This document shows, one piece after another, positions 51,301 to 60,300 of a DNA stretch of 64,000 nt; positions within the stretch are counted from its first letter, which is position 1; every line of letters starts with the position of its first letter. The stretch comes from Vulcanimicrobiota bacterium. GTDB taxonomy: Bacteria; Vulcanimicrobiota; Vulcanimicrobiia; Vulcanimicrobiales; Vulcanimicrobiaceae. The stretch covers positions 221,493 to 285,492 of the forward strand of contig PLCF01000085.1 of the NCBI GenBank assembly GCA_003135555.1, read 5' to 3'. Made by a program: the position numbers.

Positions 51301-54300
51301 GCTTTGGGGCAACGATCCGGCCATCATGGCGCTGGCCGCCAAGGTCGTGCGCGAGTGCGGGGCCGACATCGTCGACATCAACTTCGGGTGTCCGGCGCCG
51401 AAGGTCACCAAGACCGAGGGCGGCAGCGCGTGCCTGCGCGACATCGCGCGTTGCGAGGCGATCATGAAAGCGGTGGTCGCCGCCGTCGATTGTCCGGTCA
51501 CGATGAAGATGCGCCTCGGTTGGACCGAGAGCGAGCAGGTCTTCGTGGAGGTCGCCAAACGCGCGCAGGCCGTTGGGGTGCAGGCGCTCACGCTGCACGC
51601 GCGCACCGCCAAGCAGTTCTACAAGGGTAGCGCGGACTGGTCCAAGATCGCCGAGCTCAAGCGCGCGGTCGACATCCCGGTGATCGGCAACGGCGACTTG
51701 ACCGACCCCTACGACGCGATACACCGGCTGCGCGAGAGCGGCGTCGACGCGCTGATGCTGGGTCGTGCGACGCTGGGAAACCCGTGGCTGGTGTCGCGCT
51801 TGCGCGCGCTCATGGAGAACCGCGAACCGGCCGCCACGCCGGCGGCGCCGGACCGGCTGCGGTTCGCGGTCCATCACTATCGCACCATGGTCGAGGAGTG
51901 GGGTGAACCGCGCGCCGTGCCGCAGATGCGCAAGCATCTCGGGTACTACCTCAAGGGCTTCGCCGGCGCGGGCGCGTTGCGCGAGCGCCTCATGCGCACC
52001 GAGACCGCGGCGCAAACGCTCGACCTTCTCGAACAGACCATCGCGCAGCTCGAGCTGCACGCGAGCGAGCTCGCCGTCGCGTGAGCCCCCTATACGGCGC
52101 GGCGAGCCCGGCCGCGCTGTTCGATGAAGTCTACGAGAACTACCGCAAGTATCTCAACCCGCCGCTGGCGCGCGTGATGAAGCTGTCGGGCTCGCCGGTG
52201 GAGGTGAGTGCCGAGGGCTGCATCATCACCGATCACGCCGGCAAGACGTACCTCGACTTCGCCGGCGGCTACGGCGTCTTCACGCTGGGCCACCGGCACC
52301 CGCGCGTCGTCGCCGCGGTCAAAGATCAGCTCGACCGCATGGCGCTGTCGGGGCGCACGATGTTCAACCCCTTGATGGGGCGTCTGGCGAAACGGCTGGC
52401 GGAGCTGGCGCCCGGCGATCTTTCGATCTCGTTCTTCGCCAACAGCGGCACCGAGGCGGTCGAGGGCGCGCTCAAGCTCGCGCGAGCGGCGACCAAACGT
52501 CCGGCGATCGTCGCGACCCACGGTGCGTTTCACGGCAAGACCCTGGGAGCACTCTCGGCCAGCGGACGCGACGCCTTCCGCGATCCGTTTCTGCCGCTGC
52601 TCGCCGGCGTGCGCCACGTCGCGTTCGGCGACGCCGCTGCGTTGCGCGCGGTCGTCGACGCGAACGTCGCCGCCGTCATCGTCGAGCCGGTCCAAGGTGA
52701 AGGCGGGGTCAACGTTCCGCCGGCTGGGTATTTGCGCGATGTGCGCGCGATCTGCGATGCGGCCGGCGCGGTGATGATCGCCGACGAGGTGCAAACCGGG
52801 TTGGGCCGCTGCGGCGAGCTGTTCGGCTGCGACCGCGACGGCGTCGTGCCCGACGTCATGACCCTGGCCAAGGGGCTGTCGGGCGGCGTCGTTCCGATCG
52901 GCGCGTACGTGGCGCGTCCGGCGGTGTGGAACGCAGCCTACGCGAAGCAGCCGCTCTTGCACACCTCGACCTTCGGCGGCAACGAGCTGGCGTGCGCGGC
53001 GGCGCTCGCCGCGCTCGACGTCCTGCGGGACGAAGATCTCGTCGCCAATGCCCGCGCGCGTGGCGCCCAGCTCCTCGCCGGCGCCCAGGCGACGGCTGGG
53101 CGCTATCCCGCCGTGGTCGCGCAAGCGCGCGGCGCCGGCCTGCTCGTCGGCGTCGAGCTGCGCAGCGAAGGGTACGGCGGCACGATCATCCCCGAGCTGC
53201 TCAAACGCGGCGTCACGGCGGCATGGACGCTCAACGCGCAGCGCGTGATCCGCCTCGAACCCCCGCTCATCGTGAGCGCCGCGCAGGTGGAGACGGCGTT
53301 GGCCGCGTTCGACGCCGCCGTCGCGAGCGCGTTCGAGCAGCTCGGAACGCTGCCCTGATGCCGTTCGTCAAATGCGCGATCGACGTCACGGCCGCGGCGT
53401 CCGCGGTGTACGAGCTGGCCAAGGAACAGGAGCGCTTCCCCGAGTTCATGCCTGACGTCGAGACGGTCGTGGTGCTCGAACGGCATCCGGATCGGGTGGT
53501 CACGCGCTGGAAGACCTTGGTCGAGGATGCGCCGATCGAGTGGACCGAGGACGATCGCTTCGACGACGCCGCGCTGCGGATCGACTACGCGCTCATCGAG
53601 GGCGACCTCGACACCTTCGAGGGCGCTTGGACGTTCGAGCAGCGCGGGGACGTTACGCACGTCGTGCTGACGGTCGAGTACGACTTCGGCGTCCCGACGC
53701 TGGCCGAGCTGATCGGTCCGACGCTGGAGAAGAAGGTGCGCGAGAACGCGGAGATGATGCTGGTCGCGCTCAAGCGCGAGGCGGAATCACCGACGGTCCT
53801 GCAGTCGGCGCGCGGTACGCGCTAAAGCGCGTGGCGCCCGACTGCGCGCGCTGCGGGATCGCGGCGTGCAGCAGCTCCACCGCCCGCACCAGCTCCTCGG
53901 CATAGGCGGGCTCTTCGATCCGAGCGGGGTCGTACGCCGCGCCGCGCACGCGAAAGGCGGCGCGTTCGATCTCGTCAAGCATGACCCCCGCCTTGGCGGC
54001 CCGCTCGCCGAAGGCGCGCATCCGTTGCAGCGTGTCCTCCAGGCGCACCACCTCGCTGCGGTAGTCTTCGTACTTGCGCCGCTCCTCGGCGACGCGGTCG
54101 CGCAGCTCCGGCCAGGCGCTCTCGCGAAAGCGCGCGATCTCCTCGCTCCCGCGCTCGGTGAAGCGGCGCTTGCGTGCGGCGACGATCTTGTGCTCCTCTT
54201 CGTCGGCGAACCGCGGCCCTTTGTTGCGCGCGCGGGCCAGCGCCGCGTGCTCCGCCGGCGTGTAGTCGGTCGCAAGCGTTACCCGGTCGCTGATCGCCGC

Positions 54301-57300: not shown

Positions 57301-60300
57301 CGCGCCATCGCCGGGCTGGAGCGAGCGGGAGTCGAACCCGCGCAACGTGGCTGTCAGGACCAGTTGTCGGACCGCCGAATCGCCCCAGCATAGCGTCTAT
57401 CACGCAACCGCAACAGTTTGGCAAGGACCCGGCGTGAAAAAAGTCGTGTCCGTTTCACTCGGTTCGTCGTCGCGGGATCATCATGCGGAAGTGGATTTGC
57501 TGGGCGAGCGGTTCGCTATTTCGCGGGTGGGGACGGATGGTTCGATCGACAAGGCGATTGCGCGGATCAAAGAGCTCGACGGCACCGTCGACGCGATCGG
57601 GCTGGGCGGGATCGATGTCTACTTGTATGCCGGCAAAGAGCGGTACGCGCTGCGCGACGGGTTGCGGCTGCTCGCTGCCGCCACGCAAACCCCGGTGGTC
57701 GACGGTAGCGGGCTCAAGAATACGCTCGAGCGCAATGCGATCGCATTTTTACACGACGTGCTAGGCATCGAGCTGCGCGGCAAACGCGTGCTGATGGTCA
57801 GCGCGCTCGACCGCTTCGGGATGGCGCAGGCGCTGGTCCAGGCCGGCGCCGACGTGGTCTTCGGCGACTTCATCTTCGCGCTCGACCTCGACCGGCCGGT
57901 CCGCGGGCTGGACGAGTTCGAGGAGATGGCGCGCAAGTATCTTCCCGACGCCTGCAAGCTGCCGTTCCAGTTCTTCTATCCGACCGGGAAGAAGCAAGAT
58001 CGTGCGCCGCAGCCCAAGTACCCCGAGTACTACGACGACGCCGAGATCATCGCCGGCGACTATCACTTCATGCGGCAGTTCATGCCCGAGCGGCTCGACG
58101 GCAAGACGATCCTCACCAACACGGTCACCGCGAGCGACGTCGACTTCCTGCGCGGCCACGGGATCGCGCGGCTGGTGACGACGACGCCGGACTTCGGCGG
58201 CCGTTCGTTCGGCACCAACGTCGTCGAGGCGGCGATGATCGCGCTGCTGGGCAAACGCTGGGCCGACGTAACCGAGGACGACTACCGGCGACTGATGCGC
58301 GAGCTCGACCTCAAACCGCGCGTGATCGAGTTCAGCGGCGCGTAGCGCTTGTCGCTCGTCCGCAATCTCTTCGCGCGCCAGGCGCACGACCGCGAACGCT
58401 TGCCGTCCGACGGCGTGCCGCTGCGCCGCGTGCTCGGCGTGTGGGGCTTGGTCGCGGTCGGCTTGGGAACGATGCTCGGCGGAATCTTCACCACCGTCGG
58501 CACCGGCGCGCACGCCGCGGGCCCGGCGGTCGTGGCCGCGTTCGGGCTCTCGGGGATCACCTGTTTGTTCGTCGCGCTGTGCTACGCCGAGCTGGCTTCG
58601 ATGGTCCCGGTCGCGGGCAGCGCCTACACCTACGCCTACGCGGCGCTGGGCGAGATCGTCGCGTGGGTCATCGGGTGGGATCTCATCCTCGAATACGGGA
58701 TCAGCGTCGCTCCGCTCGCGGCAACATTTTCCGGCGCGTTGCAGCAGCTGCTGGCCAGAACGGGTCTCACGCTGCCGTCGTGGGCGCAGACGGCGAACCT
58801 GATCTTTGCGCACGGCCGGATCGATTTCGCGCACTCCCAGCTCGACGTCACGGCATGCGTAGCAATCGTGATTCTCGCGCTCGTCCTGGCGATCGGGATT
58901 CGCGAGTCGGCGGCGACCAACGTGCTGCTGGTGGTGATCCAACTCGTCGCGCTCGTGGGCTTCGTGGTGTTTTTGGGCGGCGCCGTCAGGCCCGGCGCCT
59001 ACCACCCCTTCGCACCGCTCGGGCTGGGTGGGATCGTGACCAGCGCCGCGCTCGTGTTCTTCGCCTACATCGGATTCGATACCGTGACCGTGGCCAGCGA
59101 GGAAGCGCACAACCCGCAGCGTGACGTCCCGCGCGCGATCATCCTCTCGCTGCTCATCGGGGCGCTGCTCTTCGCGGCGGTCGCGGCGGTAGCCGTAGGC
59201 GTCGTCGCCTGGGACAAGATCGACACCAACTCGGGGATGCTCGACGCCGTGACGCACGCCGGAAACAATCCGTGGCTGTTCGGCCTGGTGCTCGTCGGCA
59301 CGGTCACCGGGACCGCGGCGTCGATGCTGATCTCGCTGCTCGGACAGGTGCGCATCTTCTACGTGATGTCGCGCGACCGGTTGCTGCCGGCGGCCTTCGG
59401 CGCGGTAAACCCGCGCACGCGCACGCCGGTGCGCATGACGCTGGGGACCGGGATCGTGGTCGCGATCCTCGCGCTGGGCGTCCCGCTGCAGACGCTGCTG
59501 GAGTTCGTCAACATCGGCACGCTGTCGGCGTTCGTCATCGTGTGCGCCGGCGTCATGGTCTTGCGCTTCACGCACGCCGAGGTCGCGCGGCCGTTTCGCG
59601 TTCCGTTCGGTCCGGTGGTCGTCCCGGCGATCGGGATCGTCCTGTGCGTGTGGCTGACGGTGCAAGGTCTCGCGGCGCTGACGTGGCTGCGATTCCTGGT
59701 GTGGTTCGTGGTGGGGCTGGCGATCTACGCGCTGTACGGCTACCGCAAGTCGCGCCTGCGCGGGCGCTGATGACCGGTGCGCCGCGGCTGGTTCGCGTCC
59801 TCGCTTTGCGCGATCTGATCGTCGTCGCGGCCGCGTCGATGGGCCCGGCCTTCTCGCTGGCGACGACGATGGCAGCGATGCTCGCGACGGCCGGGCGCTG
59901 GACCTGGCTGGCGCTGGCGCTCGTCGCGCTGCTGATGGCGATGATCGCGGTCGGCTACAAGCGTTTGGGCGAGCGGATGCGCGACGCGGGCTCCTCGTAT
60001 GCCTGGATTCGGGCGGCGTTCGGGCCTGAGGCCGGAGCCTACGGTGCGTGGGTGCTGCTCGTCGCAAACCTGTTCGCGGTGCTCGCGACGGCGCTGCCCG
60101 CCGGGACGTACACGCTCGATCTCGTCGCGCCGGCGCTGGCGCCCAACGGCCTCGCCGTCGCGCTCGTCGCCTGCGCTTGGATCGTCGCGGCGGCGTTGCT
60201 GCTGTGGTATGGCTTGCGTCCGACGGCGCTGGTGGCGTTCGCGCTGCTGGGGGCCGAGGTCGTCGTGCTCGCCGCAGCGGCCGGCCTGTCGGCTGCGCAC

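What a model noticed while it worked through the whole genome (the two positions that open the first line are those of the whole stretch)
52081..58345. No GpsA and no PgsA/PssA, but a core split-PigE (acyl-ACP reductase + aminotransferase) module: a Deinococcus-like alkyl [...]
This genome and its order lack two standard phospholipid steps: glycerol-3-phosphate dehydrogenase GpsA and any CDP-alcohol phosphotransferase (PgsA/PssA). They keep a single-copy four-gene module: class III aminotransferase g02170, START/cyclase g02171, acyl-ACP thioester reductase g02174 (PigE N-domain/AAR type) and g02176, a second AAR-fold protein. Reductase plus aminotransferase would turn acyl-ACP into long-chain alkylamines, as found in Deinococcus-Thermus phosphoglycolipids, so the order probably builds its membrane from non-canonical amine/glycolipids.
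Evidence so far: PF07479 (GpsA) in 0 of 31 and PF01066 in 2 of 41 order genomes (one weak), against 10 and 13 of 14 controls; the one control without PF01066 is D. radiodurans; glycerol kinase in 1 of 5 closed relatives. g02174 in 21 of 21 order genomes at 63-87% identity, best PDB hits PigE 4ppm E 4e-33 and cyanobacterial AAR; of 56 full-length loci (of 80 fetched) 56 hold g02176, 54 the START gene, 52 the aminotransferase. The AAR model rings only in Synechococcus, Thermus and Deinococcus among controls; g02176 look-alikes come from Deinococcota, Chloroflexota, Bacillota and its model (pLDDT 87) matches AAR 6jzq best, Z 12.3, rmsd 5.0 over 243 residues. Cultured V. alpinus shows only unidentified polar lip [...]
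(Added by a program. Inside this text positions count along the whole contig: contig position 221,493 is position 1 of the stretch shown here. "Call 12" and the like, gene names such as g00115 and contig names such as C1 are that model's own, and its searches are not shown. The text may have been shortened before it was handed on; [...] marks where a part breaks off. The agent that wrote the report below was given it as the finding of a first reader that could run no searches.)

Follow-up and report, generated by a model that had tools for sequence, protein, structure and literature searches.

The report
Candidate alkylamine membrane-lipid gene module
Four conserved genes in a soil-bacterium phylum most likely turn fatty acids into long-chain amines for a Deinococcus-type membrane lipid whose enzymes have not been identified, in bacteria that also lack the usual enzymes for making and using the glycerol-phosphate lipid backbone.

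Summary
The module is real: class III aminotransferase, START protein, AAR-type thioester reductase (catalytic Cys and NAD(P) motif intact) and an AAR-fold protein without that Cys (g02176). g02176 is in 120 of 121 phylum genomes. It and the reductase are also in 51 of 51 Deinococcota and together in 98 of 151 genomes of Neomoorella's phylum, the groups known for N-glyceroyl-alkylamine lipids. In Deinococcota the reductase is fused to a PlsY-like membrane domain; in several Bacillota it is fused to the aminotransferase, as in TamH, which makes fatty amines. Best reading (0.55): split TamH chemistry supplies the alkylamine of a Deinococcus-type phospho(glyco)lipid.

The absences mostly hold: GpsA 0 of 81 order genomes; PF01066 strong in 3, with a weak accessory type in 12. 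But the module is not their replacement: all 17 phylum genomes with GpsA keep g02176, and PlsX/Y/C and CdsA remain. Two gaps stay open. Closed genomes G010 and G013 have PlsY and CdsA but no GpsA, GlpK, GlpD or G1P dehydrogenase, and closed G001 has CdsA but no PF01066 or PLD enzyme. No product or activity was shown.

The parts
52081..53358 (+). g02170, class III (omega) PLP aminotransferase, 425 aa; proposed fatty aldehyde to alkylamine step. Overlaps dusB upstream and START downstream.
   Evidence: PF00202 E 5e-104; best NCBIfam PatA 464 bits (cut-off 612) and PigE 422 bits (cut-off 850); clade 99/99 with Thermaceae, Armatimonadota, Bacillota and TamH-like fused relatives
53358..53825 (+). 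g02171, START/polyketide-cyclase-fold protein, 155 aa; proposed carrier of the lipophilic aldehyde or amine (inferred)
   Evidence: PF03364 E 2e-18; next to the aminotransferase in Propionispora, 41%; reciprocal best hit in Thermaceae genome G196, 33%
53773..54867 (-). Inserted gene of unknown function, not part of the conserved module
   Evidence: No significant family; not seen in 29 order loci (limited to +/-1.5 kb of the reductase)
54892..55569 (-). Inserted ~217-225 aa gene without Pfam hit, divergent from the reductase; variable part of the locus
   Evidence: No Pfam hit; found beside the reductase in 10 of 29 order loci
55616..56725 (+). g02174, AAR/PigE-N/TamH-C type acyl-thioester reductase, 369 aa, with TTGN (123-126), GATGSIG (157-163) and Cys298
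   Evidence: motifs invariant in 35 homologues; 80 of 81 order genomes
56722..57201 (+). OsmC-like protein, inserted; not part of the conserved module
   Evidence: PF02566 E 4e-14; 5 of 29 order loci
57434..58345 (+). g02176, 303 aa, database label 'quinate 5-dehydrogenase'; AAR/shikimate-dehydrogenase fold, no cysteine in its conserved core; conserved R31, D90, K95, E99, R127, D145, D209, K224, R257, N262
   Evidence: No family hit; fold; conservation; 120 of 121 phylum genomes
50807..52084 (+). dusB, upstream anchor of the ancestral coaX-dusB-[module]-greA-lysS locus
   Evidence: TIGR00737 over cut-off; dusB in 51 of 80 g02176 loci
61126..61629 (+). greA, downstream anchor of the same locus (followed by lysS)
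   Evidence: PF03449 and PF01272; greA in 55 of 80 g02176 loci

Best explanation
The module is a split, housekeeping version of TamH chemistry that feeds a Deinococcus-type membrane lipid. Step 1 (inferred from intact motifs and close precedent): g02174 takes the acyl chain from acyl-ACP onto Cys298 and reduces it with NAD(P)H to a fatty aldehyde. Step 2 (inferred): g02170 transaminates the aldehyde to a long-chain primary amine; the START protein carries the hydrophobic intermediate. Step 3 (least certain): g02176, a nucleotide-binding paralogue of the reductase, acts in the same pathway, most likely in joining the amine to a glycerate unit (my best guess is NAD-linked oxidative amide formation from a triose phosphate). 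PlsX/Y/C and CdsA supply CDP-diacylglycerol, which an unrecognised enzyme transfers to the glyceroyl-alkylamine, giving an N-glyceroyl-alkylamine phospho(glyco)lipid in place of PG/PE/CL. Loss of PgsA then parallels D. radiodurans. Loss of GpsA is a separate gap that the module does not by itself explain. Shown here: genes, motifs, fusions, distribution, absences. Not shown: any substrate, product or activity.
For: Precedent: TamH (aminotransferase + AAR-type reductase, one chain) and the split pair TabE + TabA turn acyl-ACP into fatty amines (PMC9594044; 10.1101/2025.08.11.669332). Aminotransferase-reductase fusions of 873-911 aa or an adjacent pair in 4 of 5 Bacillota genomes tested plus L140. 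9 of 10 g02176-bearing genomes tested hold a member of the g02170 clade. Reductase and g02176 each in 51 of 51 genomes of the Thermaceae genome's phylum; in 20 of 20 loci the reductase is the C-terminal part of a 542-557 aa protein, with an N-terminal PlsY-family domain in the 3 scanned, beside a separate canonical PlsY in 5 of 5; same fusion in Bacillota genome G320. All four genes have reciprocal best hits in G196. Neomoorella stamsii has g02176 + reductase + aminotransferase, and M. thermoacetica is listed with N-glyceroyl alkylamines (PMC13274423). In that phylum 98 of 99 reductase-positive genomes have g02176 and 36 of 37 g02176-negative genomes lack the reductase. 116 of 123 long g02176 relatives are fusions with the reductase, in both orders. 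The enzymes for the third chain of the Thermus lipid were unidentified in 2022 (PMC9636437). V. alpinus has one unidentified phospholipid, four glycolipids and no named PG/PE/CL.
Against: No lipid of this class has been structurally identified in what I read; ninhydrin or amide data were not found. The aminotransferase clade also contains putrescine-aminotransferase-like rows, one beside a polyamine transporter, and PatA is the best NCBIfam hit. Outside this phylum the aminotransferase and START are rarely next to g02176 (1 and 0 of the 68 other loci among 80). Caldicoprobacter has g02176 but only an ArgD-clade hit, and 16 of 114 g02176-positive Bacillota genomes have no reductase at E<=1e-40. 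g02176-reductase fusions occur in Marinobacter, for which I recall no alkylamine lipid, although their g02176 domain has lost D90, K95, E99, R127 and D209. The order has one PlsY only (5 of 5), so the Deinococcota PlsY-like domain has no counterpart here. Kin are not independent, so co-occurrence counts overstate.
Confidence: 0.55

Rival explanations
1. The module makes a long-chain amine, but for another envelope product (an amide lipid without phosphatidate, an LPS or cell-wall anchor, or a small molecule), not the Deinococcus-type phosphoglycolipid.
For: Same reductase-transaminase evidence. V. alpinus has four glycolipids and seven unidentified lipids. No phosphatidyl-transferring enzyme was found among 69 membrane-protein reciprocal best hits between G000 and G196 (read by eye).
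Against: Universal presence in Deinococcota with fusion to PlsY; CdsA kept without a known consumer in G001; presence in Neomoorella.
Confidence: 0.15
2. Reductase plus g02176 perform a four-electron reduction to fatty alcohols or diols (alkyl glycosides, wax esters, ether lipids); g02176 is the aldehyde reductase and the aminotransferase is a side branch or bystander.
For: g02176 and reductase are the tightest pair (37 of 80 loci adjacent against 13 for the aminotransferase; fusions). g02176 has a shikimate-dehydrogenase-like fold (Z 9.5) with conserved Asp and Lys. Fusions occur in Marinobacter, a wax-ester producer (recalled).
Against: The Marinobacter g02176 domains have lost the conserved polar residues. 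The reductase is fused to or paired with the aminotransferase in Bacillota, and the four-gene order holds across the phylum.
Confidence: 0.13
3. The module replaces both GpsA and PgsA: the class builds its main lipid on a glycerate-amide backbone or makes glycerol phosphate with g02176.
For: GpsA in 0 of 70 and PF01066 in 5 of 70 genomes of the class; G010 and G013 lack GpsA, GlpK, GlpD and G1P dehydrogenase; plsY is followed by efp, not gpsA, in 5 of 5 loci.
Against: All 17 GpsA-bearing phylum genomes keep g02176; Thermus and Deinococcus have GpsA and their phylum has the module; PlsY passes the canonical model (153.6 against cut-off 137.2).
Confidence: 0.1
4. Amino-acid or polyamine metabolism: a GluTR/GSAM-like or PatA-like pair acting on a small soluble thioester or diamine.
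For: PatA is the best NCBIfam hit and lies in the same clade; two amino-acid permeases follow the module; weak HemA hits for the reductase.
Against: Fusion of the reductase to PlsY, the START partner, and separate PatA-like, ArgD-clade and GSA paralogues in the same or related genomes.
Confidence: 0.07

Closest known systems
TamH (Pseudoalteromonas tunicata) and TabE + TabA (Streptomyces albus), tambjamine fatty-amine tail
   Same: Class III aminotransferase plus AAR-type reductase with GxxGxxG and catalytic Cys; aminotransferase first; converts acyl-ACP to a free fatty amine. Bacillota relatives of this module are fused the same way.
   Different: Split into two genes with a START protein and g02176; single-copy core genes in a housekeeping locus (dusB-greA-lysS), not a bipyrrole cluster; no dedicated ACP beside it. 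TabE is described as an aldehyde-dehydrogenase-type protein, not AAR-type.
PigE (prodigiosin MAP branch; NF053554; PDB 4ppm)
   Same: Best sequence match for the reductase (E 3.9e-33) and second for the aminotransferase; thioester reduction then transamination (PMC8341465).
   Different: Opposite domain order, fused, acts on a PigD-made keto-thioester that cyclises; scores 188 and 422 bits against a cut-off of 850.
Cyanobacterial acyl-ACP reductase (TIGR04058; 6jzq) with aldehyde-deformylating oxygenase
   Same: Fold, Cys and nucleotide motif of g02174; best structural match of g02176 (Z 13.1).
   Different: 91 bits against cut-off 449.7; no oxygenase PF11266 in 5 genomes tested; g02176 lacks the Cys and GxxGxxG.
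N-glyceroyl-alkylamine phosphoglycolipids of Thermus, Deinococcus and some Bacillota
   Same: Need a long-chain amine and phosphatidate; enzymes unidentified in 2022; the module tracks these lineages; D. radiodurans is the one control without PF01066 and has CdsA and PlsY.
   Different: Lipid not reported for this phylum in what I read; here the genes are clustered, the reductase is not fused to a PlsY-like domain, and GpsA is missing.
Terminal amidation domain TAD (CarI; 9e4s)
   Same: Second-best structural match of g02176 (Z 12.0); AAR-like fold proposed to form amides.
   Different: TAD has an invariant Cys, TTG and GxGxxG, none kept in g02176; TAD activity was not demonstrated in the parts I read.
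Shikimate/quinate dehydrogenase (source of the database label of g02176)
   Same: Same superfamily fold (2hk9 Z 9.5); an S-x-S motif and a D-G motif recall the substrate site (recalled, not tested by alignment).
   Different: No PF01488 hit, 13% identity; G000 has a separate AroE-like gene.

Membership tests
TamH/PigE thioester reductase-transaminase | AAR-type reductase with GxxGxxG and catalytic Cys | tested here: met
   G157-G160-G163 and C298 invariant in 35 homologues; aligned to PigE and AAR C294 region
TamH/PigE thioester reductase-transaminase | Class III PLP aminotransferase partner | tested here: met
   PF00202 E 5e-104; PigE model residues 376-732
TamH/PigE thioester reductase-transaminase | Both domains in one chain; NF053554 cut-off 850 bits | tested here: not met
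   Two genes, 422 and 188 bits; fused only in Bacillota relatives
TamH/PigE thioester reductase-transaminase | Located in a prodiginine or tambjamine cluster | tested here: not met
   Neighbours are panC, coaBC, coaX, M13 peptidase, dusB, permeases, greA, lysS; bipyrrole genes elsewhere in the genome were not searched
TamH/PigE thioester reductase-transaminase | Converts acyl-ACP to amine in vitro | not testable with these tools
   Needs assay
Cyanobacterial AAR/ADO alkane pathway | TIGR04058 over cut-off and ADO present | tested here: not met
   91 against 449.7 bits; PF11266 0 of 5
Putrescine aminotransferase PatA | NF008570 or TIGR03372 over cut-off; separate clade | tested here: inconclusive
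   464/612 and 407/659 bits; PatA-like rows nest in the same 99/99 clade
Shikimate/quinate dehydrogenase (g02176) | PF01488 match and glycine-rich nucleotide loop | tested here: not met
   No Pfam hit; S/C-A-x-D-R at the loop position; fold related
Terminal amidation domain (g02176) | Invariant Cys with TTG and GxGxxG motifs | tested here: not met
   No conserved Cys in 86 rows; Asn262 inferred at that place
N-glyceroyl-alkylamine lipid pathway | Orthologues present in lineages that make the lipid | tested here: met
   51 of 51 Deinococcota; Neomoorella stamsii; lipid reports
N-glyceroyl-alkylamine lipid pathway | The lipid is present in this phylum | tested here: inconclusive
   TLC only: one unidentified phospholipid, four glycolipids, seven unidentified lipids
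N-glyceroyl-alkylamine lipid pathway | Absent from lineages shown to lack the lipid | tested here: inconclusive
   TIGR04058 silent in 10 of 14 controls; named Bacillota strains listed without the lipid could not be searched by name; Marinobacter has a degenerate fused form
Canonical PG/PE pathway (GpsA-PlsXYC-CdsA-PgsA/PssA) | GpsA and a CDP-alcohol phosphotransferase | tested here: not met
   none of 13 PF01066 proteins scanned passes the PgsA cut-off, one from outside the class passes PssA
Canonical PG/PE pathway (GpsA-PlsXYC-CdsA-PgsA/PssA) | PlsX, PlsY, PlsC, CdsA | tested here: met
   PlsY 5 of 5; CdsA 4 of 5, missing only in incomplete G000; PlsX and PlsC in G000 by motif and inspection

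The most novel reading that the evidence does not exclude
This class makes its membrane with at least two undescribed enzyme activities, and g02176 is one of them: a new lipid-facing NAD-dependent enzyme that builds the three-carbon backbone straight from triose phosphate (oxidative coupling of glyceraldehyde-3-phosphate to the alkylamine, redox-balanced against its partner reductase, or reduction of DHAP/acyl-DHAP). 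That would let whole genera do without GpsA, GlpK and GlpD, and phosphatidyl transfer would run through a fold unrelated to PF01066 and PLD.
Probability: 0.18. Interest if true: 0.92.

Novelty: new variant of a known kind. Interest (0 to 1): 0.73.

Why it matters
The enzymes that add the alkylamine chain of the Thermus/Deinococcus phosphoglycolipid were unidentified in 2022 (PMC9636437), and my searches found no paper that assigns them. This module names four candidates that can be tested at once in Thermus thermophilus or D. radiodurans and in the cultured V. alpinus. It predicts the lipid in an abundant soil phylum and in many Bacillota and Armatimonadota, which matters for lipid biomarkers. 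It also marks a class of free-living bacteria with no recognised source of glycerol-3-phosphate and no recognised consumer of CDP-diacylglycerol; GpsA is described as present in almost all bacterial groups (PMC5059525). g02176 is a widespread, mislabelled family with no Pfam model.

Tried and rejected
Complex prediction of g02174 with g02176: no answer, score 0.01 against a mark of 0.32; no weight either way. Profile-profile comparison of g02176 with g02174 found no alignment, so the Asn262 = Cys294 equivalence rests on fold and motif inspection only. Viral contigs hold no g02176 relative. A divergent core PgsA hidden below the Pfam cut-off: the weak hits are an accessory three-gene block of one genus, absent from G000. 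A divergent GpsA: own profile from 4 phylum GpsA proteins found nothing better than E 0.001 in G000. PLD-type transferase as universal CDP-DAG consumer: none in closed G001; hits elsewhere are short HKD-like proteins or polyphosphate kinase by inspection. G1P dehydrogenase 0 of 41; GlpD 19 of 81; GlpK 2 of 5. Alkane pathway: no ADO. Reciprocal best hits between G000 and 2.0 of 2.15 Mb of Thermaceae genome G196 (719 pairs, 69 membrane pairs, read by eye, no family scan) gave no clear phosphatidyltransferase candidate; G000 is incomplete, so one may be missing. Promoter and terminator scans were at chance level. Bale et al. 2025 (Syst Appl Microbiol 48:126609) is not held; I saw its title only, and it may already propose genes.

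Full report
What is in the window. The region holds dusB, then an aminotransferase (52081-53358) overlapping a START gene (53358-53825), two opposite-strand genes, a reductase (55616-56725), OsmC and g02176 (57434-58345), then two permeases, greA and lysS. The aminotransferase is class III; its best NCBIfam models are PatA (464 of 612 bits) and PigE (422 of 850). The reductase matches PigE's N-terminal domain (4ppm, E 3.9e-33) and cyanobacterial AAR (E 5.3e-18) and keeps TTGN, GATGSIG and Cys298, invariant in 35 homologues. g02176 has no family hit; its model (pLDDT 96.3) matches AAR 6jzq (Z 13.1, rmsd 4.7, 251 residues), then the TAD domain 9e4s (Z 12.0) and shikimate dehydrogenase (Z 9.5). 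It has no conserved cysteine but a set of invariant charged residues. Named close relatives come from Vulcanimicrobiota/Eremiobacterota, including V. alpinus WPS_28850 at 86%.

How conserved. The reductase is in 80 of 81 order genomes and g02176 in 120 of 121 phylum genomes, nearly always once (this and include G138, marked unpublished, as 1 of 121). The order aminotransferase-START-reductase-g02176 is intact in three distant families. In 29 order loci g02176 is next to the reductase in 29, START in 22 and the aminotransferase in 21 within 1.5 kb; all 6 same-genus loci carry an insertion that pushes them out of view.

The absences. PF07479 passes its cut-off in 0 of 81 order genomes (controls 10 of 14) and 0 of 70 class genomes, but in 17 of 51 other phylum genomes, all in two families; all 17 also have g02176. 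PF01066 is found in 15 of 81 order genomes at E<=0.01, 7 over cut-off, 3 strong. Nine weak loci examined are one divergent family, followed in L035 by PF01553 and PF01148 genes (the E. coli name ynbABC is recalled). It is in 11 of 28 genomes of genus g3 and not in G000. Outside the class 40 of 51 genomes have PF01066; of 13 such proteins scanned from the whole phylum none passes the PgsA cut-off and most from outside the class are PssA-like. G000 is 84% complete and lacks CdsA, which 4 of 4 relatives have, so its own blanks carry little weight. PlsY is single and canonical in 5 of 5 and is followed by efp, not gpsA (the der-plsY-gpsA order in Bacillota is recalled). GlpK is in 2 of 5, GlpD in 19 of 81, G1P dehydrogenase in 0 of 41. 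Closed genomes G010 and G013 thus keep PlsY and CdsA with no recognised route to glycerol phosphate, and closed G001 keeps CdsA with neither PF01066 nor a PLD domain. These are 'not found in those searched'.

Relatives outside the phylum. g02176 sits in an old coaX-dusB-(HTH)-g02176-reductase-greA-lysS locus: dusB 51, greA 55, reductase 37, aminotransferase 13, START 12 of 80. Twelve of the 13 aminotransferases are in Vulcanimicrobiota-type operons; the other is a 911-aa aminotransferase-reductase fusion directly after g02176 (L140). In 10 such genomes searched, 9 hold a member of the g02170 clade (99/99 support): beside START in Propionispora, beside a reductase in Alkaliphilus, fused to a reductase in three, alone in Neomoorella, Desulforadius, Chthonomonadales and Thermaceae; Caldicoprobacter has none. 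The clade also holds three PatA-like rows, so the tree does not separate fatty amines from polyamines. Where the reductase beside g02176 has decayed and lost its motifs (L093, L103, L129, L150, L106, L143), an intact fusion lay elsewhere in 3 of the 4 such genomes searched. In the phylum of Neomoorella g02176 is in 114 and the reductase in 99 of 151 genomes, both in 98, neither in 36 (kin are not independent, and the 1e-40 threshold misses decayed copies). Of 123 long relatives, 114 are g02176-reductase and 2 reductase-g02176 fusions; the Marinobacter ones keep the reductase Cys and have lost five conserved g02176 residues. Either partner can therefore decay while the pair is kept, which points to a long-standing functional partnership.

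Link to lipid. In the phylum of the Thermaceae genome both genes are in 51 of 51. In 20 of 20 loci the reductase is the C-terminal part of a 542-557 aa protein; the three scanned start with a PlsY-family domain with altered motifs, and a canonical PlsY exists separately in 5 of 5. A Bacillota genome has the same fusion. All four window genes have reciprocal best hits in G196 at 51, 33, 36 and 55% (2.0 of 2.15 Mb examined). Thermus makes a phosphoglycolipid with an alkylamine on a glycerate unit, and the enzymes for that chain were unidentified (PMC9636437; introduction and passages). M. thermoacetica is tabulated with N-glyceroyl alkylamines (PMC13274423; passages); Bale et al. 2025 extends the lipid to several Bacillota (title only, seen in two reference lists). 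V. alpinus shows one unidentified phospholipid, four glycolipids and seven unidentified lipids by TLC (PMC9758169; passages and one supplement legend; the TLC picture itself could not be seen).

Mechanism. TamH has an N-terminal class III aminotransferase and a C-terminal AAR-type reductase and turns C12-ACP into the amine (PMC9594044, part 1 of 5); TabE and TabA do so as two proteins (10.1101/2025.08.11.669332, part 1 of 5); PigE reduces a thioester and transaminates the aldehyde (PMC8341465, passages); AAR works through an acyl-cysteine (10.1101/2024.10.28.620694, parts 1-2 of 5). From these I infer acyl-ACP to aldehyde to amine for g02174 and g02170 (about 0.75 on its own) and the N-glyceroyl-alkylamine lipid as destination (0.55 overall). 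The role of g02176 is the weakest step. An invariant Asp after the second Rossmann strand (D145) suggests nucleotide binding, and conserved Arg, Lys and Asp suggest a phosphorylated or carboxylated small substrate; this is inference from the model's secondary structure and conservation. I favour amide formation with a glycerate precursor, at roughly one in three among the options.

The module and most absences are confirmed, and the alkylamine idea is now better supported. The module does not stand in for GpsA and PgsA, since it coexists with both. The missing PgsA fits the Deinococcus parallel; the missing glycerol-phosphate source is a real, separate puzzle (GpsA is in almost all bacterial groups, PMC5059525, passages).

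Novelty. The chemistry is known; its split, core-genome form, the g02176 family and the link to an unsolved membrane-lipid pathway were not found in print by searches, which cover open-licence papers only. Supplements of the bioRxiv papers were not seen. Earlier notes of this scan reached the same reading for the module and for the PlsY fusion; they are not independent support, and I found the fusion before reading them.

Noticed in passing
L034-L042 (genus g3; e.g. L035:1-2106): Accessory block of divergent CDP-alcohol transferase, acyltransferase and CdsA-type gene, about 40-50 kb from the module in most of the genomes that have it; absent from G000.
   Followed up: partly
P0175 (762 aa; 4 members): Fusion of an aminotransferase class I/II (8-amino-7-oxononanoate-synthase-like) domain to an intact g02176 domain; may mark a different amine-lipid route.
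   Followed up: no
L092:7408-8004, L143:7381-7956: A conserved HTH gene directly precedes g02176 in 38 of 80 loci, mostly Bacillota; possible regulator of the pathway.
   Followed up: partly
window 54892-55569: Pfam-less gene, divergent from the reductase, conserved at this place in 10 of 29 order loci; looks beta-rich.
   Followed up: partly
L328:7909-12081 and L318:13366-16745 (G196): In this Thermaceae genome the aminotransferase follows gap, pgk, rbfA and a thioesterase; g02176 directly precedes efp, accB and accC.
   Followed up: no
L371:3032-3880 (G141): A second, divergent g02176 paralogue occurs in 12 of 151 genomes of that Bacillota phylum.
   Followed up: no
L141:5000-8530: Record titled Verrucomicrobiia carries the four-gene operon at 72-79% identity to this window, as Vulcanimicrobiota do; the title may be wrong.
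   Followed up: no
L081:882-2040 (G124): The reductase is in two overlapping frames in this genome; frameshift or sequencing error.
   Followed up: no
L264, L266, L268: Ketopantoate reductases, which share the GpsA fold, are the nearest GpsA look-alikes in closed order genomes; a moonlighting DHAP reductase is an untested lead.
   Followed up: partly
L031:1129-2133 (G050): The strongest PF01066 hit in the order resembles actinobacterial ClsA/PgsA and sits before a sugar-phosphate nucleotidyltransferase; may be transferred or a contaminant.
   Followed up: partly
window 50191-50850: PEMT/ICMT-family membrane methyltransferase on the minus strand just before dusB.
   Followed up: no
window 62001-64000: GC falls to 0.55; lysS has an extended C-terminus, suggesting an insertion at its 3' end.
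   Followed up: no
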